Virus record (IMG/VR): IMGVR_UViG_2617270952_000001
Direction: 5' to 3' (one strand)
Length of the DNA stretch: 19,808 nucleotides
Origin: a virus
Lineage: Duplodnaviria > Heunggongvirae > Uroviricota > Caudoviricetes
Position numbers and translations under genes: made by a program. Below the pieces are notes generated by a model that searched no databases, was not told where the DNA came from, and saw nothing but the letters and a program-made list of their open reading frames with translations. Below, one piece after another: positions 1 to 12,162 of the stretch. Every line of letters begins with the position of its first letter. Within the stretch, counting starts at the first letter, position 1.

Positions 1-210
1 AACGCTGAAAAATGAGAGCCTGAGCCACTATCGTTTTAATAACCGGGATGAAGCCATCTCAGTAATACGGGAATACATTGAGATTTTCTACAATCGTCAG
101 CGTCGTCACTCTCGTCTGGGGAATATCTCCCCGGCAGCCTTCAGGGAAAAATATCATCAGATGGCTGCTTAAAAAAAGAACAAATGGTAGTGTCCGCTAT
201 TGCCAGTACA
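1..210 (+). mobile_element. 3' end of an IS3-family insertion sequence (orfB 3' end plus right terminal repeat ending ...TGCCAGTACA)
   Basis: Frame 2 of 2-172 translates to ...EYIEIFYNRQRRHSRLGNISPAAFREKYHQMAA*, a typical IS3-family OrfB C-terminus. Sequence 185-210 ends in CA and resembles IS3/IS150-group terminal repeats (reverse complement begins TGTACTG). Left part of the element lies outside the window. Confidence 0.6.
2..172 (+). CDS. IS3-family transposase OrfB, C-terminal fragment (5' end outside window)
   Basis: Open frame from the window edge to TAA at 170-172; conserved YNxxRxHSxLGxxSP motif of IS3-family DDE transposases. Confidence 0.7.
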   Translation, partial: TLKNESLSHYRFNNRDEAISVIREYIEIFYNRQRRHSRLGNISPAAFREKYHQMAA

Positions 211-646
211 CCTCACGCTTCCAGTCTTCGCGGTCGTTGTCGATAACTTCTTTTTTTGCCCAGCGATGGATGCTGCCGTCAATGTTTCCGGCATCCACAT
301 CACTAGGCCAGAGAGCGTAGGCCAGTTCGTCATCCAGTGTTTTCCATGTCTGCTTGTATTCGCGATGAATGGCAGCAATGACCGGGCTGATTTTTCCTGT
401 TGAATTTTCAGTGTACTGTTGATTGGCTCTGGCGCGGGCGAGATCAACAACAGACGTGTATTTTCCGGTTTCCTTGCGTTCACCTTCGCGACGTTTTTTC
501 CAGATGCGCATCTCTGCCTGAATTTCGGGCCATTTAGCACCAGGAATACATTTATGCTTAACCCACCCAATGGCGTGCAACTTAAGCTCCGGATACGGGT
601 TATTCCCCTCTGAACAGGCGCGTAAGGACTGGCAAAACGCCCGCAA
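197..646 (-). CDS. hypothetical protein; C-terminal codons and stop lie inside the IS terminus (probably an IS-truncated gene)
   Basis: 149-codon ORF with protein-like charged composition. First codon at 646 is TTG; first ATG is codon 46. The last three codons and the TAG stop (197-208) fall within the putative IS terminal repeat. Confidence 0.35.
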   Translation of the reverse strand: MRAFCQSLRACSEGNNPYPELKLHAIGWVKHKCIPGAKWPEIQAEMRIWKKRREGERKETGKYTSVVDLARARANQQYTENSTGKISPVIAAIHREYKQTWKTLDDELAYALWPSDVDAGNIDGSIHRWAKKEVIDNDREDWKREVYWQ

Positions 647-836
647 AAAACTCTCGAGGGCAAAGGTGAAGAAACCTGCTGTGGTTGATCCGGACCTTAT
701 CTGGTCATCACCTGACGGAGAAATACGTCGCTACGACAGTCGCCTAAACATAATCTGTCGCGAGTGCCGGAAGAGCGAAGTTATGCAGCGCATACTGGCT
801 TTCTATCAGGGTAATTTTCAGGACGTGGCGCAGTGA
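570..836 (+). CDS. small hypothetical ORF translationally coupled to the methyltransferase frame (GTG at 666 is an alternative start that avoids overlap with the minus ORF)
   Basis: ORF ends in TGA overlapping the GTG at 833 (GTGA). A GAGGG motif lies 6 nt upstream of the in-frame GTG at 666. May be the out-of-frame N-terminal part of the methyltransferase. Confidence 0.3.
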   Translation: MACNLSSGYGLFPSEQARKDWQNARKKLSRAKVKKPAVVDPDLIWSSPDGEIRRYDSRLNIICRECRKSEVMQRILAFYQGNFQDVAQ

Positions 837-1279
837 GTGCACCGGCAACCATTCTTGATATGTGCTGTGGCAGCCGCATGTTCTGGTTCGATAAGTCTGA
901 CGAACGGGCGATATTCAGCGATATCAGAAAAGAAGGATACACATTACGCAATGGGAGACGCTTGATTATCAGCCCTGACATTATCGCAGATTTTCGTGCA
1001 TTATCATTTGCAGACGCATCTTTTTCGATGGTTGTATTAGACCCTCCGCATCTTGAGAGTGTTGGTGATAACGCCTGGATGGGAAAGAAATATGGACGGC
1101 TGAATAAAGATGCCTGGCGTGATGATTCGCGACAGAAATTTAAAGAAGCCTTTCGGGTGTTGAGGCCGCACGGCGTTCTGATTTTTTAATGGAATGAAAC
1201 GCAAATACCGGTAAGCCAGATTCTGGCACTGACAGACAGAAAACCTGTTATCTGTCAACGAACAGGGAAAAAACGATAA
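833..1279 (+). pseudogene. SAM-dependent methyltransferase (motif I DMCCGSR, motif IV VVLDPPHL) interrupted by an in-frame TAA at 1187-1189
   Basis: The 118-codon ORF has a motif-I-like glycine-rich segment and a DPPH motif 60 aa later. After the TAA the same frame continues for 29 codons (WNETQIPVSQ...) to a TAA at 1277-1279. Confidence 0.5.
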
Positions 1280-1451
1280 AACCCACTGGATTATTTTTAT
1301 GAAAGAGGCATCCAGTGAGTAGATTCGTAAGGCTACAGATACGTATATCTGAATAATTAAATTCAGTTCTGTAAATAAAATTTAATCCTTAACCGGATGG
1401 ATTTCTGCACCCTCAGAACATCAGGAGGCCGCCCGAAAGGGCGGTAGTGAA

Positions 1452-1562
1452 ATGCGAAAGTTCAAAATTATTATTGAAACGGGAATAGCTGGTGGAGATT
1501 TTGAGGATGTATTCGAAGTGGACGATGACGCAACACCTGAGGAAATTCATGACGGAGCATAA
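1452..1562 (+). CDS. mini-ORF (36 aa, acidic) preceded by an AGGAGG-hairpin-ATG arrangement
   Basis: ATG at 1452. AGGAGG at 1423-1428 is separated from the ATG by a perfect 6-bp stem with GAAA loop (1429-1444). Stop overlaps the next ATG (ATGA). Confidence 0.3.
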   Translation: MRKFKIIIETGIAGGDFEDVFEVDDDATPEEIHDGA

Positions 1563-2341
1563 GAAATTTTCTTTAACTACTGCAATTACTCATACCACGA
1601 AATAAAAGACGATGAGGAAGAACAAAGTGGCTGATTTTTGTTCAGCTAAATATAACATCAGTTTTGAAGAGCGGGATGAACTATTAATGGACTATGGTGA
1701 GTTACGCGGTGGAAGTGCTGCTGATGTCGAATCCTAGCGTGATGACTATGAAGCGGGAAAAACTCCGGTCGAAGCATATTGTGATGAGTGGGGCGATGAA
1801 TGAGCGAGATTAATTATCAGGAAGGGCATGAAACGGCGGGGGAAGCAAAACCAGTGGCATGGCGATATCGCTACGTGAAAAAAGGCGTTACGGACTTTCA
1901 GGGGAAGTAGTGGTCTGGTGACTGGAAATATGTACCGAAAAAAGAGGATTGTAACGACAGGCCGAACTATCAAATTCAGGCCTTATTCACTGCCTCACCA
2001 GTCCCAGTTACATCAGAAGAACTGGTTAAAGCTGTGCACTTTTATGAACAACTAAAACGCGAAAATCCACCAACATCCGGCAACTAGATTAATGGATTAA
2101 CTATGTCGGTTAAACGACCAGCCAACTGAAAAAGCGGAAACCTGATTACAGGTTGCCAGATAAGGCAATGAGCTACCTGGCGCGGAACGGACTGATAAGT
2201 ATGGGGAATGTTTTACGATGAACCTTTAGACTAAAGAGTTTGTAACGCTATGTAAGTGATTTTTTCTGGTTTAGATATTTATATGTCCGGCCAAATTGAG
2301 GTGTGTTTAAATGTAATTGCACATTGATTGTAGGAGGAATA

Positions 2342-2521
2342 ATGAAAAACGCATTGCAGTTTTTGTTTGTTGCGTTCTGGTTGTTCGCATCATGTATGCC
2401 CATCATCTTCACAGCAAGGTATATGGAAAAAGTTGATGTTTTGATATTAATATTTGGATATATAAATGCCCTTTTTTTAGGGGTGTTCATGGCGGTCATG
2501 TGCATTGAATACTGGCGGTAA
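2342..2521 (+). CDS. small membrane protein, 59 aa, two predicted transmembrane helices
   Basis: AGGAGG at 2332-2337, 4 nt before the ATG. Product MKNALQFLFVAFWLFASCMPIIFTARYMEKVDVLILIFGYINALFLGVFMAVMCIEYWR has two hydrophobic stretches of about 20 aa. Confidence 0.5.
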   Translation: MKNALQFLFVAFWLFASCMPIIFTARYMEKVDVLILIFGYINALFLGVFMAVMCIEYWR

Positions 2522-2779
2522 ATACAGCGAACTCCATTGGTTTAGTTGGATATTTACTGTGCTGGACAAAAACGGTTTGCGGGGAAATCTTAGTTAAGTA
2601 GAATGACTGCGGGTGCTTGAGGCTATCTGCCTCGGGCATGGACACCAACGGCAGATAGAGAAAAGCCCCAGTTAACATTACGCGTCCTGCAAGACGCTTA
2701 ACATTAATCTGAGGCCAATTTCATGCTAGACACATGTAGGTTAGCCTCTTACGTGCCGAAAGGCACGGAGAAGCAGGCT

Positions 2780-4420
2780 ATTGTTAACACCAAGCTGTAA
2801 TGTCCCCTTTGAACCATTCTAAAATGTCCCCAGACAATTCTCTGGGGGATTTTTCATGATCAAAGAGACTGTTACGATGAGTCATAAGGAACTCCACCGA
2901 CTTCAGATTATTCAGGAACAAGCTGCGGCACGCATTGGCATTTCTATTCGGCAGGTTAAACGTCTGGTGCAACGGTATAGAAATGAAGGGCCTTCTGGTC
3001 TGGTTTCCCACCGACGTGGAAAGCGTCCTAATAATTCCTTTTCTACTGAATTCAGAGCAACAGTAATTTCACTCCTCAAAGGCCGTTACGCTGATTTTGG
3101 ACCTACGTTTGCGTGCGAAAAATTGCGCGAGATACACGGTTTATCTTTATCCGTTGAAACTCTCAGAAAGTGGATGATAGAAGAGGGGTTATGGCGTGAA
3201 CGCCGTCGTAAAATTGCCCGTATATATCAACGCCGCATGCGACGACCATCTTACGGTGAACTGATCCAGATTGATGGCTCACCTCATGACTGGTTTGAAA
3301 ATCGAGGCCCCAGATGTACACTGATCGTTTTCATTGATGATGCCACCAGTGCGTTGATGGCGTTGCGTTTTGTGCCTGCTGAAACAACCCGGGCTTACAT
3401 GGAAACCCTCCGGGGTTACCTTAATGATCATGGCGTACCGCTCGCTCTCTACTCTGATAGACACAGTATATTCAGGGTAAATAACCCAGAGCGGGAAGGT
3501 GAGCTGACCCAGTTCACTCGTGCGATAAAGACACTGGGCATCGAGCCAATCCATGCCAACAGCCCGCAGGCAAAAGGGCGGGTAGAGCGCGCCAATCAGA
3601 CACTACAGGACAGGCTGGTCAAAGAAATGCGGCTTCAGAATATCAGTGATATTGAAACAGCAAATGCATGGTTGCCGACCTTTATTGAAGCCTATAACAA
3701 CCGGTTCGCTACGTCGCCTCGTACTACTGATAATGCTCATCTTGATGTGCACCATTCTGAAGAGGAACTGGGTTATATCTTCAGCCTACAGGCGAAGCGC
3801 GTTCTGTCTAAAAATCTCACTTTCCAGTACAAAAGCAGTGCGTTTCAGGTACGCAGTGAGGGCCGGGGATATCGACTTAGGCATTCGGTTGTTACTGTAT
3901 GCGAGAACTTTGACGGTGAAATTAACGTTCTGTATGACGGGAAAGCGCTGGGCTGGGAAAAGTATGTTGATGGCCCGGAGCCTATACCACTGGATGATGA
4001 AAAGAGTGTCCATGAACGAGTGGATAATGCCCGTATTGATTTACGCTCAAAATACTATGTTAAACCTAAAGCTGACCATCCCTGGCTTACGCGCCGAACG
4101 CAAAGTCATCAGCAAGTTAAGCCCCCGAAGTTACCTAAAAAGAAGCCTGATCCCGATAAAAAAGATTGAAACCAAGATCGATTCGGTTGAGTGCATATCC
4201 ATTCATAGGGTAGATTCTTAAGTCGCGTTTCTGGTGTTCATTTTCGGGTGGTTTGTTACTTGTTTTACCGGGGATATGCCAGAAACGCGCTGAGTCAGTC
4301 TGGGCGGTGCGCGTAATGAGGCGTTATGGTAAATAGCCTATGCTAATGTCCGCTAAGAGCAAGAAGCGGAAGTTGGCAGTTTTGTGGACTGTCCCCACAA
4401 AAGTGACTACAGAAATAGTT
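2780..4420 (+). mobile_element. putative insertion sequence carrying the DDE transposase; termini not resolved
   Basis: Transposase ORF flanked by short repeated motifs (AATGTCCCC at 2799-2807 and 2823-2831; TAATGTCC at 4344-4351; TGTCCCC at 4390-4396). I could not find clean terminal inverted repeats, so the boundaries are approximate. Confidence 0.3.
2856..4169 (+). CDS. DDE transposase with retroviral-integrase-type (rve) catalytic core and N-terminal helix-turn-helix; IS481/ISNCY-like single-ORF transposase
   Basis: 437-aa ORF. Catalytic-core signature IQIDGS ... LYSDRHS ... KGRVERANQTLQD (D, D, E with K/R), N-terminal HTH (IGISIRQVKRLVQRY), basic C-terminal tail. Confidence 0.85.
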   Translation: MIKETVTMSHKELHRLQIIQEQAAARIGISIRQVKRLVQRYRNEGPSGLVSHRRGKRPNNSFSTEFRATVISLLKGRYADFGPTFACEKLREIHGLSLSVETLRKWMIEEGLWRERRRKIARIYQRRMRRPSYGELIQIDGSPHDWFENRGPRCTLIVFIDDATSALMALRFVPAETTRAYMETLRGYLNDHGVPLALYSDRHSIFRVNNPEREGELTQFTRAIKTLGIEPIHANSPQAKGRVERANQTLQDRLVKEMRLQNISDIETANAWLPTFIEAYNNRFATSPRTTDNAHLDVHHSEEELGYIFSLQAKRVLSKNLTFQYKSSAFQVRSEGRGYRLRHSVVTVCENFDGEINVLYDGKALGWEKYVDGPEPIPLDDEKSVHERVDNARIDLRSKYYVKPKADHPWLTRRTQSHQQVKPPKLPKKKPDPDKKD

Positions 4421-4564
4421 GCAATTCATAATTGATCATGGGTTGTCAGTTAAACTCGTGGCGATTTAAATAGACTAATTGGGAGTGCGTCCATTACTTA
4501 TATCTTGTAATGTTAACTATCAGAAATGATACAAAGATAATATGTCTTTAAAGAAAAGGCTGAT

Positions 4565-4592
4565 GGCGAAAAGTGGCCCGATGAGGGCCACA
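4565..4592 (-). terminator. rho-independent terminator downstream of flxA
   Basis: 7-bp stem GTGGCCC/GGGCCAC with 5-nt loop (4574-4592), followed on the minus strand by TTTTCGCC. Confidence 0.5.
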
Positions 4593-4605
4593 ATACGGCT
4601 GTCAC

Positions 4606-4938
4606 TTAGACGTAAATATCAATGGTGCCAGCGGTATTTGTATCGTCTTTTTTCTCTTCTTTTTTATCAGGCTGAACTGTCGCGTCTTCATTCTTTTTCT
4701 CTGCCTGCTGCCTTAACAACTGCTCCAGTTGAGCCCAGAGGCTTTCAATTTGCTTCTGTACCAATGCAGCCATTTCTTTTTTCTGCTGTGTCGTCATCCC
4801 CTCTTCCGATGAGATTTTCCCAAGCTTTTCAGTCAGCACCTGAATTTGTCTTGTGATTTTGGCTATTTCTGATGTTCCTTCCGGGGCGGAGTTGTTTGAA
4901 ATAACGGTTGAGGTATTTCCCTGAATTGTGACAGACAT
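4606..4938 (-). CDS. flxA: FlxA (FliA-regulated protein of Qin prophage)
   Basis: 110-aa product MSVTIQGNTSTVISNNSAPEGTSEIAKITRQIQVLTEKLG... matches my recollection of K-12 FlxA. A sigma-28-type promoter lies immediately upstream. Confidence 0.9.
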   Translation of the reverse strand: MSVTIQGNTSTVISNNSAPEGTSEIAKITRQIQVLTEKLGKISSEEGMTTQQKKEMAALVQKQIESLWAQLEQLLRQQAEKKNEDATVQPDKKEEKKDDTNTAGTIDIYV

Positions 4939-4961
4939 AGATTTCTCCTTTTAAAAAAGCA

Positions 4962-4988
4962 CTATCGGCATGCACAAAAAAATCTTTA
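4962..4988 (-). promoter_or_regulatory. sigma-28 (FliA) type promoter for flxA
   Basis: Minus strand reads TAAAGATT-N11-GCCGATAG, close to the sigma-28 consensus TAAAGTTT-N11-GCCGATAA, about 25 nt upstream of the flxA ATG. Confidence 0.65.
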
Positions 4989-5140
4989 ATCGTATTTCTT
5001 GTGTCATTAATTGTTTGATGTTCAGATTGTTTTCCTCGCGGGCTGGCGCGCCTCAGAAAGTAAAGCTTGTTGACAGGGGTAAACGTTCGGCAATAATTTT
5101 CTGCCGCATGCGGGTGTTGCATAAAACGTGTTACGTTCCT

Positions 5141-5446
5141 TTATCGACAGGTCAGGTCACCGCTCACCCGCCGACGAGAAAGCAACACTGACATGCTAAA
5201 GCAAAAAATAGATGAATAAGTTGAGTTGTGCATATGTAGCCTGACCGTCACAAAGTATATGGTGTCTGTACCAGTAAGATGATGGCCGGACTCTTTAAAA
5301 ACGAGCTGACCTGCACAATACAGGATGGACTTAGCAATGGCTGCTCCTGGCACAAAGCGGACAGTGATCACCGTTCTTACGACTACTTTCTGACTTCCTT
5401 CGTGACTTGCCCTAAGCATGTTGTTGTGCGATACTTGTAATGACAT
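5141..5446 (-). CDS. ydfV: hypothetical protein at the position of YdfV (between relB and flxA)
   Basis: 101-codon ORF in the position and with the length I recall for K-12 ydfV. Its ATG (5444-5446) lies inside the relBE operator palindrome; no clear Shine-Dalgarno seen. Confidence 0.5.
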   Translation of the reverse strand: MSLQVSHNNMLRASHEGSQKVVVRTVITVRFVPGAAIAKSILYCAGQLVFKESGHHLTGTDTIYFVTVRLHMHNSTYSSIFCFSMSVLLSRRRVSGDLTCR

Positions 5447-5459
5447 TTGTAATTACAAG
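5434..5459. promoter_or_regulatory. relBE operator (relO) inverted repeat in the relB promoter
   Basis: Palindrome CTTGTAATGACATTTGTAATTACAAG 12 nt upstream of the relB ATG; RelB-RelE autoregulation through such a palindrome is established. Confidence 0.7.
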
Positions 5460-5470
5460 AGGTGTAAGAC

Positions 5471-5710
5471 ATGGGTAGCATTAACCTGCGTATTGACGAT
5501 GAACTTAAAGCGCGTTCTTACGCCGCGCTTGAAAAAATGGGTGTAACTCCTTCTGAAGCGCTTCGTCTCATGCTCGAGTATATCGCTGACAATGAACGCT
5601 TGCCGTTCAAACAGACACTCCTGAGTGATGAAGATGCTGAACTTGTGGAGATAGTGAAAGAACGGCTTCGTAATCCTAAGCCAGTACGTGTGACGCTGGA
5701 TGAACTCTGA
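5471..5710 (+). CDS. relB: RelB antitoxin
   Basis: 79-aa product MGSINLRIDDELKARSYAALEKMGVTPSEALRLMLEYIADNERLPF... matches RelB; stop overlaps the relE start (TGATG). Confidence 0.95.
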   Translation: MGSINLRIDDELKARSYAALEKMGVTPSEALRLMLEYIADNERLPFKQTLLSDEDAELVEIVKERLRNPKPVRVTLDEL

Positions 5711-5997
5711 TGGCGTATTTTCTGGATTTTGACGAGCGGGCACTAAAGGAATGGCGAAAGCTGGGCTCGACGGTACGTGAACAGTTGAAAAAGAAGCTGG
5801 TTGAAGTACTTGAGTCACCCCGGATTGAAGCAAACAAGCTCCGTGGTATGCCTGATTGTTACAAGATTAAGCTCCGGTCTTCAGGCTATCGCCTTGTATA
5901 CCAGGTTATAGACGAGAAAGTTGTCGTTTTCGTGATTTCTGTTGGGAAAAGAGAACGCTCGGAAGTATATAGCGAGGCGGTCAAACGCATTCTCTGA
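5710..5997 (+). CDS. relE: RelE toxin (ribosome-dependent mRNA endonuclease)
   Basis: 95-aa product MAYFLDFDERALKEWRKLGSTVREQLKKKLVEVLESPRIEANKLRGMPDCYKIKLRSSGYRLVYQV... matches RelE. Confidence 0.95.
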   Translation: MAYFLDFDERALKEWRKLGSTVREQLKKKLVEVLESPRIEANKLRGMPDCYKIKLRSSGYRLVYQVIDEKVVVFVISVGKRERSEVYSEAVKRIL

Positions 5998-6068
5998 ACC
6001 AAAGCATGACATCTCTGTTTCGCACCGAAGGTGACACTTCTGCTTTGCGTTGACAGGAGAAGCAGGCT

Positions 6069-6224
6069 ATGAAGCAGCAAAAGGCGATGTTAATCGCCCT
6101 GATCGTCATCTGTTTAACCGTCATAGTGACGGCACTGGTAACGAGGAAAGACCTCTGCGAGGTACGAATCCGAACCGGCCAGACGGAGGTCGCTGTCTTC
6201 ACAGCTTACGAACCTGAGGAGTAA
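6069..6224 (+). CDS. hokD: Hok-family membrane toxin (HokD/RelF), 51 aa
   Basis: ATG at 6069 gives MKQQKAMLIALIVICLTVIVTALVTRKDLCEVRIRTGQTEVAVFTAYEPEE*, the Hok family signature. Below the 60-aa cutoff of the supplied ORF track. Confidence 0.9.
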   Translation: MKQQKAMLIALIVICLTVIVTALVTRKDLCEVRIRTGQTEVAVFTAYEPEE

Positions 6225-6292
6225 GAGACCCGGCGGGGGAGAAATCCCTCGCCACCTCTGATGTGGCAGGCATCCTCAACGCACCCGCACTT

Positions 6293-6319
6293 AACCCGCT
6301 TCGGCGGGGTTTTGTTTTT
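6293..6319 (+). terminator. rho-independent terminator after hokD
   Basis: CCCGC-TTCG-GCGGG hairpin followed by GTTTTGTTTTT. Confidence 0.6.
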
Positions 6320-6440
6320 ATTTTCAACGCGTTTGAAGTTCTGGACGGTGCCGGAATAGAATCAAAAATACTTAAGTAGCGCGCAGGGATAAGAGGGATG
6401 GTCCCTTAAAGGGGAGAGCTAATTATCCGGAAGGATTCTG

Positions 6441-6692
6441 ATGATGAACATCGAAGAACTGCGTAAAATTTTTTGTGAAGATGGCCTCTATGCTGTGTGC
6501 GTTGAAAATGGAAATCTTGTTAGTCATTACCGCATTATGTGTTTGCGAAAGAATGGGGCTGCGTTAATTAATTTTGTGGATGCTCGGGTCACGGACGGAT
6601 TTATCTTGCGCGAAGGTGAGTTTGTCACTTCATTACAGGCATTGAAAGAGATCGGAATAAAAGCTGGCTTTTCTGCTTTTTCAGGAGAATAA
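6441..6692 (+). CDS. rem: Rem (Qin prophage small protein)
   Basis: 83-aa product MMNIEELRKIFCEDGLYAVCVENGNLVSHYRIMCLRKNGAALINFVDARV...; position between hokD and the DUF968 gene as in K-12 Qin. Confidence 0.85.
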   Translation: MMNIEELRKIFCEDGLYAVCVENGNLVSHYRIMCLRKNGAALINFVDARVTDGFILREGEFVTSLQALKEIGIKAGFSAFSGE

Positions 6693-6758
6693 ACTCATCT
6701 ACAATCTTGCGCGGGGCTGAACTCCCGCTGAGTAACACCGTGCCACCGGAGAAAACCG

Positions 6759-7158
6759 ATGGCACGCAACGCAAAATATTACAATTCTGATAATTCGCCC
6801 GTTCTTGCCTGCACGCACGGGCGGTATTCTCACGCATTCAAGTCTGAATGGTTCCAGCACCCTCCATGCACTGCAGAACAGGCCGAATGGCTGATTCATT
6901 CTTACCGCAGGCGCGGGTTCGAGGTTAAGAAAGCTCTCAGTCTCGACTATGCCAGCCGACGATCCGCATCATCTGATTGGTCACGGGCAGGGCGGAATGG
7001 GAACAAAAGCACATGATCTCTTTGTGTTGCCTTTGTGCAGAAAGCATCACAACGAGCTGCATACGGATACAGTGGCATTTGAAGATAAGTATGGCTCCCA
7101 ACTGGAGCTGATATTTCGTTTTATCGATCGCGCGCTGGCAATTGGCGTACTGGCGTAA
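6759..7158 (+). pseudogene. ydfU: DUF968/YdfU-like gene remnant with HNH-like motif, split over two frames by a +1 frameshift
   Basis: ORF 6759-7016 and ORF 6949-7158 overlap in different frames. The second carries HHLIGHGQGGMGTKAHD...CRKHHNELHTD. Total span about 400 nt, which I believe is much shorter than intact ydfU. Confidence 0.45.
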
Positions 7159-8558: not shown

Positions 8559-8858
8559 AAAAATTCCTTAATACTGATAACTTGGCGCACTATACACACG
8601 TTCCTGAAGAAAGCTATAGTTTTTTGATGGGGTTGAAGATGGCTGGATGTCTAAAATAAACATTGCTTCATATGTTCAACTATGCGTTAATGATTGCGTC
8701 GGTTTGAAGAACAGACGATATACGAAGTAGTTTACTAAAGCAGTTCTCATTTCAGGTGTTATTCACTTATTCCTTCTTTGAGTCTCTCCAATTAAGTACG
8801 AAGTCGTTTCTGTTATGCAAACCATTTATGCCGAAAGGCTCAAGTTAAGGAATGTAGA

Positions 8859-9074
8859 ATGTCAAATAAAATGACTGGTTTAGTAAAATGGTTTAACGCT
8901 GATAAAGGTTTCGGCTTTATTTCTCCTGTTGATGGTAGTAAAGATGTGTTTGTGCATTTTTCTGCGATTCAGAATGATAATTATCGAACCTTATTTGAAG
9001 GTCAAAAGGTTACCTTCTCTATAGAGAGTGGTGCTAAAGGTCCTGCAGCAGCAAATGTCATCATTACTGATTAA
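8859..9074 (+). CDS. cspB: cold-shock protein CspB (CspA family)
   Basis: 71-aa product [71 protein letters not shown]; about 300-nt leader typical of cold-shock genes. Confidence 0.95.
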
Positions 9075-9355
9075 AATTCATCGCTCGTCTGTATACGATA
9101 ACGAAGAAGGCTGATGCCTGAGTAGAGATACGGACAGAGTAGTGAATATTGGATCTCTTTAATAAAAAGTAAGGAGGTCCAATACATGAAACAATGGCTA
9201 GCATATTTGGCAAAATCTTAATCAGGAAAAGTATGCTAACCATTGTGGTGAAGTGCAGGTTTGCTGCATGAATAGTTTTACAGCAGAAGCTAACTGCTGG
9301 CATGGCAAAACAAAGTGCGTAAGTGGATGACTCCCACAAAAAGCACCACAATCTC

Positions 9356-11383: not shown

Positions 11384-11745
11384 GGTAATATTAAATCGGA
11401 ACATTTACATCGCGGAATGTAAAATTTAAATAAAAAGGACTCTTCCATGAGCCAAAATTCCTGAAATCTTAAGGGTAAGATAAAAGGTCTTAATCAGAAT
11501 GACACGTTTTATTAATAAATAAAGCTATTCTTTCATTGCTGTGTTTTTCTTTACAAAAGTAATCCTTGCTATGGGTGGTTAATCATGCGTTAATGGTGTT
11601 CTGGTTTGTTACAAATTTATCTGAAGCAGTCATTGTTATAATTTTATTATTTGTACCTCTTGAGATTTCCTTGTTGGTTTTTCTCTCTGATATTTTTTTT
11701 CGGACCATTCTGCCCAAGGGCTAATTTCTTCAAAAGGTAATAATT

Positions 11746-11958
11746 ATGTCTAACAAAATGACTGGTTTAGTGAAATGGTTTAACCCTGAAAAAGGTTTTG
11801 GTTTCATCACGCCGAAAGATGGCAGCAAAGATGTGTTTGTCCATTTCTCAGCAATTCAGAGCAACGATTTCAAAACATTAACTGAGAATCAGGAAGTTGA
11901 ATTTGGTATTGAGAACGGACCTAAAGGTCCTGCCGCTGTTCATGTAGTGGCGCTTTGA
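11746..11958 (+). CDS. cspI: cold-shock protein CspI (CspA family)
   Basis: 70-aa product [70 protein letters not shown]; long AT-rich leader. Confidence 0.95.
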
Positions 11959-12162
11959 GGTAGACAATATTACAAACCATATTCACTTTAGATGCCCGTG
12001 TTGTCATGGTTCCCAGTATAGAACATCATCTTTTGATGTTTCTGACATGAATCCTTTCGGGGCAAAATGTATCTTTTGTAAATCAATGATGATTACATTT
12101 GATAATATTTCACAATACTTAAATGCCAGCCGTCTGTCGTTGGATTTAAAAAAGTGAAAATG

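What the first reader, a model, noticed from the sequence alone, without database searches (positions are those of the whole stretch)
2303..2855. Unassigned module: strongly initiated 59-aa two-helix membrane protein followed by a hairpin-dense non-coding block
ORF 2342-2521 has AGGAGG 4 nt before its ATG and encodes two hydrophobic helices; I cannot place it in any Qin gene I know. The next 270 bp hold no ORF but three perfect hairpins: a 9-bp stem at 2624-2658 (CTATCTGCC/GGCAGATAG), a 5-bp stem at 2682-2697 flanked by a 9-bp direct repeat TTAACATTA (2672-2680 and 2698-2706), and a 6-bp stem with GAAA loop at 2752-2767. Small prophage membrane proteins are often toxins, lysis or exclusion factors paired with a cis RNA. 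The block could instead be a nut-like element or the left end of the downstream IS.
Basis: seen in the sequence. Interest (0 to 1): 0.6.

Follow-up and report, generated by a model that had tools for sequence, protein, structure and literature searches.

The report
Orphaned hok/sok leader beside unannotated small gene
The "hairpin-dense block" is the regulatory front half of a known Hok/Sok toxin-antitoxin locus, cut off from its toxin gene (hokD, 3.3 kb downstream) by a relBE-carrying transposon. The 59-codon ORF upstream is a separate, probably real but uncharacterised small membrane-protein gene.

Summary
In detail: the ORF, its AGGAGG and all three hairpins are there, with one coordinate off by one base.

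**Hairpin block.** Window 2611-2782 matches Rfam RF01794 (hok mRNA leader/sok) at 104 bits against a cut-off of 59. It is 92% identical to the annotated sokW/mokW/hokW locus of phage 933W. It is therefore not a cis-RNA partner of the 59-aa ORF.

**What cut it.** Homology to intact hok loci such as CFT073 stops at 2781, inside the hok start codon, and resumes at 6055 in front of hokD. The intervening 3,274 bp (2782-6055) is a transposon:
- left end and transposase of "ISEsa1" (IS1202 family);
- cargo flxA and ydfV;
- relBE, then a diverged right inverted repeat;
- a perfect 15-bp target duplication, GGAGAAGCAGGCTAT.

Three plasmids carry the same element with other cargo, each with its own 15-bp duplication in a different hok locus.

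**The 59-aa ORF.** It matches no Pfam, PHROG, NCBIfam or PADLOC model. A 41%-identical paralogue of the same length has a coding-type substitution pattern and also lies beside a hok remnant. It is probably a real two-helix membrane protein of unknown function.

**Verdict.** Mostly ordinary biology. The hok-targeting relBE transposon is the interesting by-product.

The parts
2342..2521 (+). orf59: 59-aa predicted two-helix membrane protein. Its SD, AGGAGG, lies at 2332-2337. Unannotated in all 40 sampled RefSeq rows. Probably a real gene of the prophage early-right ('nin') region; function unknown.
   Evidence: Searches give sequence and hydropathy. Searches found a 41%-identical paralogue (P0037/P0042) of the same length; codon-position differences 25/18/31, 14 synonymous-only codons, and only this frame is open in both copies; no Pfam, PHROG, NCBIfam or PADLOC match.
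2577..2604 (+). Putative hok mRNA promoter: -35 TTGCGG (2577-2582), 16-nt spacer, -10 TAGAAT (2599-2604). It lies 6 nt upstream of the leader start.
   Evidence: Read from the sequence. It lies inside the stretch conserved with 933W, from 2565. It did not pass the consensus promoter scan, so this is an inference.
2611..2781 (+). 5' leader of a hok-family mRNA. Elements: tac (2611-2623); long 5' hairpin including the 9-bp stem 2623-2631/2650-2658; hairpin 2670-2708, which is the Sok terminator read on the other strand and carries an 18-nt lineage-specific insert forming the 5-bp stem; Sok-target/mok initiation region 2710-2748; GAAA hairpin 2752-2767; hok SD GGAG at 2767-2770; first two bases (AT) of the hok start codon at 2780-2781.
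   Evidence: RF01794, 104.1 bits against a gathering score of 59, model positions 1-157 of 157; z = -4.6; covariation; homology to intact hok loci ends at 2781.
2661..2731 (-). Sok-type antisense RNA gene: a 5' tail, then a long terminator hairpin, then UUUUCUCU. Its core promoter lies within 2732-2781 and was retained.
   Evidence: coordinates transferred from the sokW misc_RNA of phage 933W (offset +1964; 217-nt gap-free match at 92.2%); fold -31.4 kcal/mol, z = -4.9.
2723..2800 (+). Truncated mok reading frame (25 codons) that runs into the IS and stops there.
   Evidence: the mokW start maps to 2723; translation is MLDTCRLASYVPKGTEKQAIVNTKL*.
2767..2781 (.). Left copy of the 15-bp target-site duplication GGAGAAGCAGGCTAT (hok SD to 'AT' of the start codon).
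   Evidence: perfect direct repeat with 6056-6070; both copies map to one 15-16-bp stretch of the uninterrupted CFT073 locus.
2782..2855 (+). Left end of the ISEsa1-type (IS1202-family) element: IRL TGTTAACACCAAGCTGTAATGTCCCC (2782-2807), a second subterminal repeat (2813-2831), and a terminator-like hairpin (2827-2848) just before the transposase ATG.
   Evidence: copies of the element in unrelated contexts all start at 2782; repeat family D1; terminator-like site.
2856..4169 (+). Transposase, 437 aa. Identical to a 446-aa plasmid copy except for a 9-aa in-frame deletion (SINRHITQE) in the N-terminal HTH, so probably defective. K-12's ydfW lies within its C-terminal part.
   Evidence: 437/446 identical. 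HTH_32/HTH_29 and rve-type domains..
2782..6055 (+). The whole 3,274-bp transposon inserted in the hok start codon: IRL, tnp, conserved left module to about 4370, cargo flxA (4606-4938, minus) and ydfV (5141-5446, minus), conserved right module 5343-6055 with relB (5471-5710) and relE (5710-5997), then IRR.
   Evidence: parallel complete elements in three plasmids.
6030..6055 (-). Diverged right inverted repeat. Read on the minus strand: TGTCAACGCAAAGCAGAAGTGTCACC.
   Evidence: 19/26 (22/30) identical to IRL, and the best non-self match to IRL anywhere in the window on either strand; ends in ...TTGACA like the IRR of intact Hahella relatives; the same IRR abuts the duplication in L097, L099 and L100.
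6056..6070 (.). Right copy of the 15-bp target-site duplication. It supplies the SD and the 'AT' of the hokD start codon.
6069..6224 (+). hokD (relF): the toxin reading frame that originally belonged to the leader at 2611-2781. An fbi-like element, TCCTCAACGCACCC at 6273-6286, is complementary to tac.
   Evidence: PF01848, E = 1.2e-23. CFT073 locus 3227-3483 equals window 6055-6312 at 98.5%; same protein accession, WP_000813254.1, in both; fbi-like match.

Best explanation
Three unrelated things sit side by side in the flagged interval.

**(1) 2342-2521, orf59.** A small gene of the prophage's early-right (nin-like) region. It encodes a 59-aa protein with two predicted membrane helices. It is probably real; its function is unknown. 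It would be transcribed with the neighbouring same-strand phage genes.

- It holds the hok promoter, the structured hok mRNA leader (tac, Sok target, mok start, hok SD), and, on the other strand, the Sok antisense RNA gene.
- In an intact locus, Sok pairs with the leader and blocks mok translation and, through translational coupling, hok translation.
- The 5' tac element pairs with the 3' fbi element to keep the full-length mRNA inert.

**(3) 2782-2855, the left end of a 3.27-kb IS1202-family transposon.** Its order is ISEsa1 left end and transposase, flxA, ydfV, relBE, then a diverged right inverted repeat.
- It inserted between the T and the G of the hok ATG and duplicated 15 bp.
- The insertion decapitated the locus. 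The Hok reading frame became hokD, third gene of the relBEF operon, driven by the relBE promoter and its duplicated SD with no Sok or mok control.
- Leader and sok were left as an orphan. It probably still makes Sok and a short leader transcript that ends in the IS, but it has no toxin to regulate in cis.

**Shown versus inferred.**
- Shown: the family assignment, the breakpoints, the duplication, the inverted repeats, the parallel insertions, and the coding-type conservation of orf59.
- Inferred: the transcripts, the promoter positions, any residual activity of Sok, and the function of orf59.
For: **Family assignment.**
- RF01794 full-length hit at 2611-2782, 104.1 bits against a gathering score of 59.
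- 92.2% identity over 217 nt to phage 933W, where sokW, mokW and hokW are annotated.
- Leader and Sok folds have z = -4.6 and -4.9.
- Compensatory pairs occur in the 5' hairpin.

**Breakpoints.**
- The uninterrupted CFT073 locus matches window 2135-2781 at 95.8% and window 6055-6312 at 98.5%, with a 16-bp overlap.
- The perfect 15-bp repeat lies at 2767-2781 and 6056-6070.
- CFT073 Hok and Qin HokD share the accession WP_000813254.1.

**Transposon.**
- IS copies in unrelated contexts begin at 2782.
- IRL and IRR match 19/26, the best such match in the window.
- Cargo-free Hahella relatives are 1,450 bp, have the same end architecture, and carry perfect repeats of at least 15 bp immediately flanking them.
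- Three plasmids hold complete elements with the same IRR and relBE, different cargo, and their own perfect 15-bp duplications in different hok loci: L097 (GGAGAAGAAGGCCAT), L099 (GGAGAAAAAGGCTAT) and L100 (GGAGAAGAAGGCCTG).
- A 15-17-bp DR is characteristic of one IS1202-family subgroup (bioRxiv 10.1101/2022.12.17.520857).

**orf59.**
- A paralogue of equal length is 41% identical.
- Differences by codon position are 25/18/31, and 14 codons differ only synonymously.
- No other frame is open in both copies.
- The paralogue is present in 1,045 of 5,426 E. coli genomes.
Against: - No expression data exist for Sok, the leader or orf59 in this strain background.
- The consensus promoter scan found no sigma-70 site in 2100-2950.
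- orf59 is T-rich (GC 37%), which favours chance hydrophobic ORFs.
- Within its own clade the four substitutions seen are all non-synonymous.
- It is split by an IS3 in strain WEM25, and frameshifted variants occur in the protein collection.
- Two phage records annotate the opposite strand instead.
- The window's transposase has a 9-aa deletion, so this copy is probably immobile.
- Several enterobacterial IS copies had no detectable duplication within the DNA available.
- I could not read Ramisetty & Santhosh 2016, who already described relBE integration at hokD, so part of the transposon story may be published.
Confidence: 0.85

Rival explanations
1. One reading: the 59-aa protein is a type I-like toxin, lysis or exclusion factor, and the downstream hairpin block is its own cis-regulatory RNA.
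For: The ORF is small and hydrophobic and has a strong SD. It lies next to a hok locus or hok remnant in two lineages that are 41% diverged.
Against: - The block is a full-length match to the hok leader model and reads into the hok start codon.
- Sok maps 140 nt or more downstream of the ORF's stop and is complementary to the hok leader, not to the orf59 mRNA.
- Plasmid and 933W hok/sok loci have the same leader without orf59.
- In the paralogous locus the ORF is intact although the leader and sok are deleted.
Confidence: 0.03
2. orf59 is not a gene. It is a chance open frame in T-rich intergenic DNA between the last nin-region gene and hok.
For: - RefSeq lists no feature there in all 40 sampled rows.
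- It matches no family in four libraries.
- Within-clade changes are all non-synonymous.
- It is disrupted in some strains.
- GC is 37%.
Against: - The paralogue has exactly the same length, start and stop at 59% nucleotide and 41% protein identity.
- The third codon position is the most variable and the second the least (31 versus 18).
- 14 codons differ only synonymously.
- All five other frames carry stops in at least one copy.
- Conserved motifs: W13, SC17-18, PII20-22, FG38-39, NAL42-44, IE55-56 and WR58-59.
Confidence: 0.25
3. The 15-bp repeats and the 3.27-kb insert arose by recombination between two separate hok loci, or between IS copies, and not by transposition of one relBE-carrying unit.
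For: - The IS1202-family preprint suggests copies without direct repeats may arise by recombination between copies.
- ISEsa1 is catalogued as a 1,609-bp IS with no target duplication.
- The middle of the element is variable.
Against: - There are four complete elements. Each has a different, perfectly duplicated 15-mer exactly abutting IRL and IRR, in four different hok loci and replicons.
- A 15-bp duplication is in the range reported for the ISTde1 subgroup of this family, and the cargo-free Hahella relatives carry perfect flanking repeats of at least 15 bp.
- The empty site exists in CFT073 with a single copy of the 15-mer.
Confidence: 0.05
4. The block is a nut-like (boxA/boxB) antitermination site of the prophage.
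For: GCCTCTTA followed by a GAAA-loop hairpin at 2744-2767 superficially resembles boxA plus boxB.
Against: - The same stretch is conserved in plasmid hok/sok loci.
- The loop sequence varies freely among hok leaders while the stem is kept.
- The Rfam model explains the whole region.
Confidence: 0.01

Closest known systems
hokW / mokW / sokW of Shiga-toxin phage 933W (AF125520)
   Same: Leader, mok start and Sok region are 92.2% identical over 217 nt with no gaps. Both are prophage-borne.
   Different: The 933W locus is intact, with hokW directly following the leader. Here the hok start codon is split by a transposon and the toxin frame lies 3.3 kb away. 933W has no orf59 upstream; its match starts only at window 2565.
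hok/sok (parB) of plasmid R1 and the Rfam family RF01794
   Same: Same leader architecture: 5' tac hairpin, Sok-terminator hairpin, Sok-target/mok initiation hairpin, and the hairpin before the hok SD. Full-length model match.
   Different: There is an 18-nt insert in the second hairpin. mok is truncated to 25 codons. No hok ORF or fbi lies on the same transcript, so post-segregational killing by this copy is impossible.
hokD (relF) of the E. coli K-12 relBEF operon
   Same: It is the other half of the same ancestral locus. hokD keeps only 15 bp of leader (the duplicated SD) plus the ORF and the fbi/3' end. That relBE integrated into and truncated the hokD/mok frame is stated in PMC6379469, citing Ramisetty & Santhosh 2016.
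   Different: K-12 lacks window 1-3984 and so has neither the leader/sok nor orf59. The vehicle (an IS1202-family transposon with inverted repeats and a 15-bp duplication) is not mentioned in the papers I could read.
ISEsa1 and the IS1202 family
   Same: The transposase is 98% identical to proteins annotated 'IS1202-like element ISEsa1 family transposase'. Ends begin 5'-TGT. The 15-bp duplication fits the 15-17-bp ISTde1 subgroup.
   Different: ISEsa1 is catalogued as 1,609 bp with no detectable duplication (PMC10132070). Here the mobile unit is 3.3-12.8 kb, ends in a relBE module plus a diverged IRR, and inserts at the hok SD/start region. The ISAba32 subgroup instead targets dif/XerC sites and makes 5-bp duplications.
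K-12 chromosomal hok loci inactivated by nearby IS elements (Pedersen & Gerdes 1999; recalled from memory, not read here)
   Same: A chromosomal hok locus disabled by an insertion sequence.
   Different: A different IS family. Here the insertion is exactly in the start codon, and the same site is hit repeatedly in many hok loci.

Membership tests
[quoted passage not shown] | Structured hok mRNA leader matching the family covariance model | tested here: met
   RF01794, 104.1 bits (gathering 59), model 1-157/157, E = 4.6e-23; covariation in the 5' hairpin.
[quoted passage not shown] | Antisense Sok RNA gene inside the leader, with a 5' tail and a terminator hairpin | tested here: met
   gap-free transfer of the 933W sokW annotation to 2661-2731 (minus strand); fold with z = -4.9 and a U-run. 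Transcription was not tested.
[quoted passage not shown] | mok reading frame overlapping and translationally coupled to hok | tested here: not met
   the mok start is present at 2723, but the frame ends after 25 codons inside the IS.
[quoted passage not shown] | Hok/Gef toxin ORF (PF01848) directly downstream on the same mRNA, with a 3' fbi element pairing to tac | tested here: not met
   homology ends at 2781; the ORF (6069-6224) and the fbi-like element (6273-6286) lie 3.3 kb away in the relBEF unit. This is therefore a split remnant, not a functional member.
[quoted passage not shown] | Post-segregational killing or Sok-dependent repression | not testable with these tools
   Needs genetics and RNA analysis.
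IS1202 family (ISTde1-like subgroup / ISEsa1) | DDE transposase with N-terminal HTH, related to catalogued members | tested here: met
   HTH_32/HTH_29 above cut-off, rve-type domains below cut-off; 98% identical to a RefSeq 'ISEsa1 family transposase'.
IS1202 family (ISTde1-like subgroup / ISEsa1) | Imperfect terminal inverted repeats beginning 5'-TGT | tested here: met
   IRL TGTTAAC... and IRR (reverse complement) TGTCAAC..., 19/26 identical; same architecture in Hahella relatives.
IS1202 family (ISTde1-like subgroup / ISEsa1) | Long target-site duplication of 15-17 bp | tested here: met
   perfect 15-bp duplications in four independent insertions; perfect flanking repeats of at least 15 bp in the Hahella copies.
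IS1202 family (ISTde1-like subgroup / ISEsa1) | Simple IS of about 1.5 kb carrying only the transposase | tested here: not met
   the units are 3.27, 6.09, 5.38 and 12.84 kb and carry relBE and other cargo. This makes it a transposon or 'transporter IS' built on the family.
Type I toxin (as proposed for the 59-aa ORF) | Antisense or adjacent RNA complementary to the toxin's own mRNA | tested here: not met
   the only antisense RNA identified is complementary to the hok leader, 140 nt or more beyond the ORF's stop. One search found no other RNA family at gathering score in the region.
Type I toxin (as proposed for the 59-aa ORF) | Growth arrest or membrane damage on expression | not testable with these tools
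   Requires inducible expression.
Lambdoid nut site | boxA plus a boxB hairpin with a conserved GNRA-like loop | tested here: not met
   the loop of the 2752-2767 hairpin is not conserved among homologous leaders. The region belongs to the hok model.

The most novel reading that the evidence does not exclude
**Reading.** The element catalogued as 'ISEsa1' is the left arm of a family of target-specific transposons. They carry relBE as a built-in addiction module at their right end, and variable cargo between the arms: flxA/ydfV, a cytochrome b plus cation-diffusion transporter pair, or nickel and chromate resistance.

**Target.** They home to one site in hok/sok loci. The 15 bp they duplicate start at the hok SD, just after the conserved hairpin. 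Each insertion decapitates a type I toxin-antitoxin system and puts its toxin frame under the relBE promoter. The textbook relBEF operon of E. coli K-12 would then be the scar of one such event, and the orphan leader/Sok seen here its missing half.

**Possible extensions.**
- The orphan Sok may still act in trans on the 92-98% identical hok leaders of incoming lambdoid phages.
- orf59 may be a functional companion of prophage hok loci.
Probability: 0.4. Interest if true: 0.65.

Novelty: new member of a known kind. Interest (0 to 1): 0.4.

Why it matters
**For annotation.**
- About 1,550 of 5,426 complete E. coli genomes carry this exact arrangement.
- In the RefSeq rows sampled, no feature is listed for the sok/leader remnant or for orf59.
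- The transposase is called a partial pseudogene.

**For toxin-antitoxin biology.** The region shows where the regulatory half of hokD went. It also shows that the classic relBE locus lies inside a transposon bounded by inverted repeats and a 15-bp duplication.

**For transposon biology.**
- It would explain why ISEsa1 was reported without a target duplication: the catalogued 1.6 kb is only the left arm.
- It would add a second kind of site-specific targeting to the IS1202 family.
- It would identify the vehicle of nickel and chromate resistance clusters on Klebsiella and Enterobacter plasmids.

**For small-protein discovery.** orf59 and its paralogue form an unclassified two-helix membrane-protein family present in about 1,570 and 1,045 of the 5,426 E. 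coli genomes.

Tried and rejected
**Searches that returned nothing.**
- Pfam, PHROGs, NCBIfam and PADLOC scans of orf59 gave nothing. The only trace was a sub-threshold Na-symporter small-subunit hit for the paralogue (E = 0.031).
- The sigma-70 consensus scan of 2100-2950 found no site.
- The word-indexed protein search with the single sequence found only relatives of at least 74% identity, many of them truncated. The exhaustive HMMER search was needed to reach the 41% paralogue.

**False starts.**
- My first searches for the duplication and IRR in the genome-collection loci failed, because the 2.5-kb flanks were too short for elements carrying cargo. Plasmid records with longer flanks solved it.
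- I first read the ~4370 boundary as the IS right end. The sequence there shows no inverted match to IRL (my reading of the sequence printed; not scored), and no duplication abuts it.

**Readings rejected.**
- The nut-like reading.
- The idea that the whole block is IS terminal sequence. Only 2782-2855 is.

**Literature.**
- Ramisetty & Santhosh 2016 could not be retrieved.
- The Shigella TSS paper gave no usable coordinates.
- A search for papers combining IS1202 or ISNCY with hok or relE listed nothing relevant among the rows shown.


Full report
**Setting.** The window is a Qin-type cryptic lambdoid prophage of E. coli, in the form found in ATCC 8739 and many other strains.
- Gene order there: dicA, dicC, ydaT-like, replication-like gene, DUF977, methyltransferase, two pseudogenes, an unannotated gap, an 'ISNCY family transposase (partial)', ydfW, flxA, ydfV, relB, relE, hokD, rem.
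- The flagged DNA (window 2200-2900) is present at 80% coverage or more in 1,546 of 5,426 complete E. coli genomes.
- K-12 MG1655 matches the window only from position 3985 onward.

**Observation.** Everything described is present.
- AGGAGG lies at 2332-2337, four bases before ATG 2342. The 59-codon ORF ends at 2521.
- The 5-bp stem is at 2682-2686/2693-2697, between TTAACATTA repeats at 2672 and 2698.
- CGTGCC-GAAA-GGCACG is at 2752-2767.
- The region folds much better than shuffles (z = -4.6).

**The hairpin block is a hok leader.**
- A scan of the whole window against Rfam gave three hits above gathering score. Two are cspA thermoregulators elsewhere. The third is RF01794 ('sok') at 2611-2782 on the plus strand, 104.1 bits against a cut-off of 59, matching all 157 model positions.
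- Despite its name, the model matches the strand of the hok mRNA. It starts with the tac element (GGGUGCUUGAGGC) and ends on the hok AUG.
- The block is 92.2% identical, without gaps, to the locus of phage 933W, where sokW, mokW and hokW are annotated.
- Transferring those coordinates puts Sok at 2661-2731 on the minus strand, the mok start at 2723, and the hok start codon at 2780-2782.
- The minus-strand RNA folds into a short 5' region, a long hairpin and a U-run (z = -4.9). This matches the usual Sok architecture (from my own knowledge of the family, not checked here).
The first is the core of the conserved 5' hairpin, which shows compensatory changes across ten diverged leaders. The second is a lineage-specific 18-nt insert at the tip of the hairpin that serves as Sok's terminator. 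The third is the small hairpin just before the hok SD.
- A plausible hok promoter (TTGCGG, 16 nt, TAGAAT) ends 6 nt before 2611. It failed the strict consensus scan, so I treat it as inferred.

**Where the toxin went.**
- Megablast against E. coli genomes shows that homology to intact loci annotated 'hokD / Hok family' always stops at window 2781.
- The uninterrupted locus in CFT073 matches window 2135-2781 (95.8%) and window 6055-6312 (98.5%). The two matches overlap by 16 bp in CFT073.
- In the window that stretch is present twice, as a perfect 15-bp direct repeat GGAGAAGCAGGCTAT at 2767-2781 and 6056-6070.
- The second copy supplies the SD and the 'AT' of the start codon of hokD (6069-6224; PF01848, E = 1.2e-23). 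The CFT073 Hok and the Qin HokD carry the same protein accession.
- Downstream of hokD there is still an fbi-like sequence complementary to tac.
- The block at 2611-2781 is therefore the missing regulatory half of hokD. The mok frame now runs 25 codons and stops inside the insert.

**What was inserted.**
- The insert (2782-6055, 3,274 bp) begins with TGTTAACACCAAGCTGTAATGTCCCC. Copies of the same transposase gene in other genera all begin exactly there.
- The transposase (2856-4169) equals a 446-aa Klebsiella plasmid protein annotated 'IS1202-like element ISEsa1 family transposase', except for a 9-aa in-frame deletion in the HTH.
- Sequence shared among copies ends near 4370. That corresponds to the 1,609-bp 'ISEsa1' of ISfinder, for which no target duplication could be found (PMC10132070).
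- The last 26 bp of the insert, read on the other strand, match the left end at 19 of 26 positions. This is the best non-self match in the whole window. They end in TTGACA, like the right ends of cargo-free 1,450-bp relatives in Hahella, which carry perfect repeats of at least 15 bp immediately flanking them.
- A 15-17-bp duplication defines one subgroup of the IS1202 family.
- The unit that moved was thus IRL, tnp, flxA, ydfV, relB, relE, IRR.

**Independent confirmation.** Three plasmids carry complete elements with the same left module, the same relBE-plus-IRR right module (window 5343-6055, 98.6% identical in L097), different cargo, and their own perfect 15-bp duplication in a different hok locus.

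| Locus | Replicon | Cargo | Size | Duplication |
|---|---|---|---|---|
| L097 | E. hormaechei pSHV12-1301491 | cytochrome b, CDF transporter, ISEsa2 | 6.09 kb | GGAGAAGAAGGCCAT |
| L099 | K. pneumoniae strain NDM-71 plasmid | cytochrome b, CDF transporter, IS1 in relE | 5.38 kb | GGAGAAAAAGGCTAT |
| L100 | E. cloacae pRHBSTW-00508_2 | nickel and chromate resistance | 12.84 kb | GGAGAAGAAGGCCTG |

- The L100 element is followed by a second, tandem copy.
- Among the enterobacterial loci fetched, the left end abuts the SD/start region of at least nine distinct, diverged hok leaders, once in inverted orientation. Four flanks were not hok.
- The duplicated 15-mer always starts at the GGAG/GGAT that follows the conserved hairpin. 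This suggests that the hairpin or the conserved AGCCUCUUAC region positions the insertion. That last step is an inference.
- That relBE integrated into and shortened the hokD/mok frame has been stated before (PMC6379469, citing Ramisetty & Santhosh 2016). In the papers I could read I found no description of the transposon, its ends, its duplication or its target preference. I could not read the 2016 paper itself.

**The 59-aa ORF.**
- It has no match in Pfam, PHROGs, NCBIfam or PADLOC.
- RefSeq lists no feature there in all 40 sampled rows. Two phage records annotate the opposite strand.
- Close relatives occur only in E. coli and Shigella, and some are frameshifted or IS-disrupted. The few within-clade substitutions are all non-synonymous.
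- The exhaustive HMMER search found a paralogue of identical length, P0037/P0042, which is 41% identical end to end.
- Its DNA is 59% identical. Differences by codon position are 25, 18 and 31, and 14 codons differ only synonymously. The other five frames are closed in one copy or the other.
- That is the pattern of a protein under constraint, so I take orf59 to be a real gene with probability about 0.7.
- The paralogue lies in a decayed prophage remnant between ttcA and uspF in 1,045 of 5,426 genomes. It too lies immediately upstream of a hok fragment, of which only the 3' half of the coding region survives.
- The orf59-hok adjacency is therefore ancestral. However, plasmid and 933W hok loci lack orf59, and the paralogue survives without leader or sok. 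A regulatory link is unlikely.
- Function remains open. Its position and strand place it in the delayed-early operon between the replication genes and the Q antiterminator.

**How the region probably works now (inferred).**
- Sok and a short leader transcript may still be made. The core sok promoter (to about -50) lies left of the insertion point.
- The leader transcript would run into the IS, where a terminator-like hairpin (2827-2848) sits just before the transposase start. Chance expectation for such sites in this stretch is about one, so this is weak evidence.
- Neither RNA has a toxin to control in cis.
- hokD is expressed, if at all, from the relBE promoter without Sok/mok control.

**Verdict.**
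- The block is a remnant of a well-known family, which is ordinary.
- orf59 is a modestly interesting unclassified small protein.
- The by-product worth following up is the hok-targeting, relBE-carrying IS1202-family transposon.

Noticed in passing
window 2782-6055; L097 9001-15092; L099 12001-17377; L100 12001-24843: 'ISEsa1' looks like only the left arm of a transposon family that ends in a relBE module plus a diverged IRR and makes 15-bp duplications. Cargo varies: flxA/ydfV; cytochrome b plus a CDF transporter; ncrABCY plus chrBA metal resistance. This would explain why ISEsa1 was reported to have no target duplication.
   Followed up: yes
left flanks of the IS in L007, L008, L011, L014, L016, L021, L025, L039, L097, L099, L100 and window 2767-2781: The element sits at the same place in at least nine diverged hok loci. 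The 15-bp duplication starts at the hok SD right after the conserved hairpin. L021 has the inverted orientation. L100, and L027 in Hahella, hold tandem copies. In Leclercia (L022 2396-2440) a related IS lies 10 bp after the IRR. This suggests strong target-site preference.
   Followed up: partly
L090 3501-3680 (E. coli, between ttcA and uspF); L089 829-1008: A 59-aa paralogue of orf59 (41% identical) is intact in 1,045 of 5,426 genomes. It sits inside a decayed prophage remnant whose integrase, sit-like transporter and hok neighbours are fragments. No feature is listed there in the 25 RefSeq rows sampled.
   Followed up: partly
window 2224-2236 and L089 about 703-715: A short palindrome, CTTTAG-A-CTAAAG, follows the upstream pseudogene. 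In the paralogous locus it reads CTTCAG-T-CTGAAG, so one position changed on both arms and kept the symmetry. It may be an operator or a small hairpin upstream of orf59.
   Followed up: no
window 5141-5446 (ydfV, minus strand): ydfV spans the boundary at 5343 between the conserved relBE right-end module and the strain-specific cargo. Only its first 34 or so codons are shared with the plasmid elements, so ydfV may be a chimeric or spurious ORF.
   Followed up: no
window 2904-2917: The transposase carries a 27-bp in-frame deletion (9 aa, SINRHITQE) relative to plasmid copies. K-12's ydfX/ydfW region begins at window 3985, inside this gene, and ydfW corresponds to its C-terminal part.
   Followed up: yes
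window about 6948-6950: Relative to K-12 MG1655 the window lacks about 0.93 kb within the ydfU (DUF968) region. K-12 locus L098, reverse-complemented, has an extra 6109-7035.
   Followed up: no
window 8698-9090 and 11600-11985: Two cspA-type thermoregulator leaders (RF01766, 158.8 and 112.8 bits), as expected for the Qin cold-shock genes.
   Followed up: no
L005 (strain WEM25) 800-2237: orf59 is split by an IS3-family insertion in this strain, so the gene is dispensable there.
   Followed up: no
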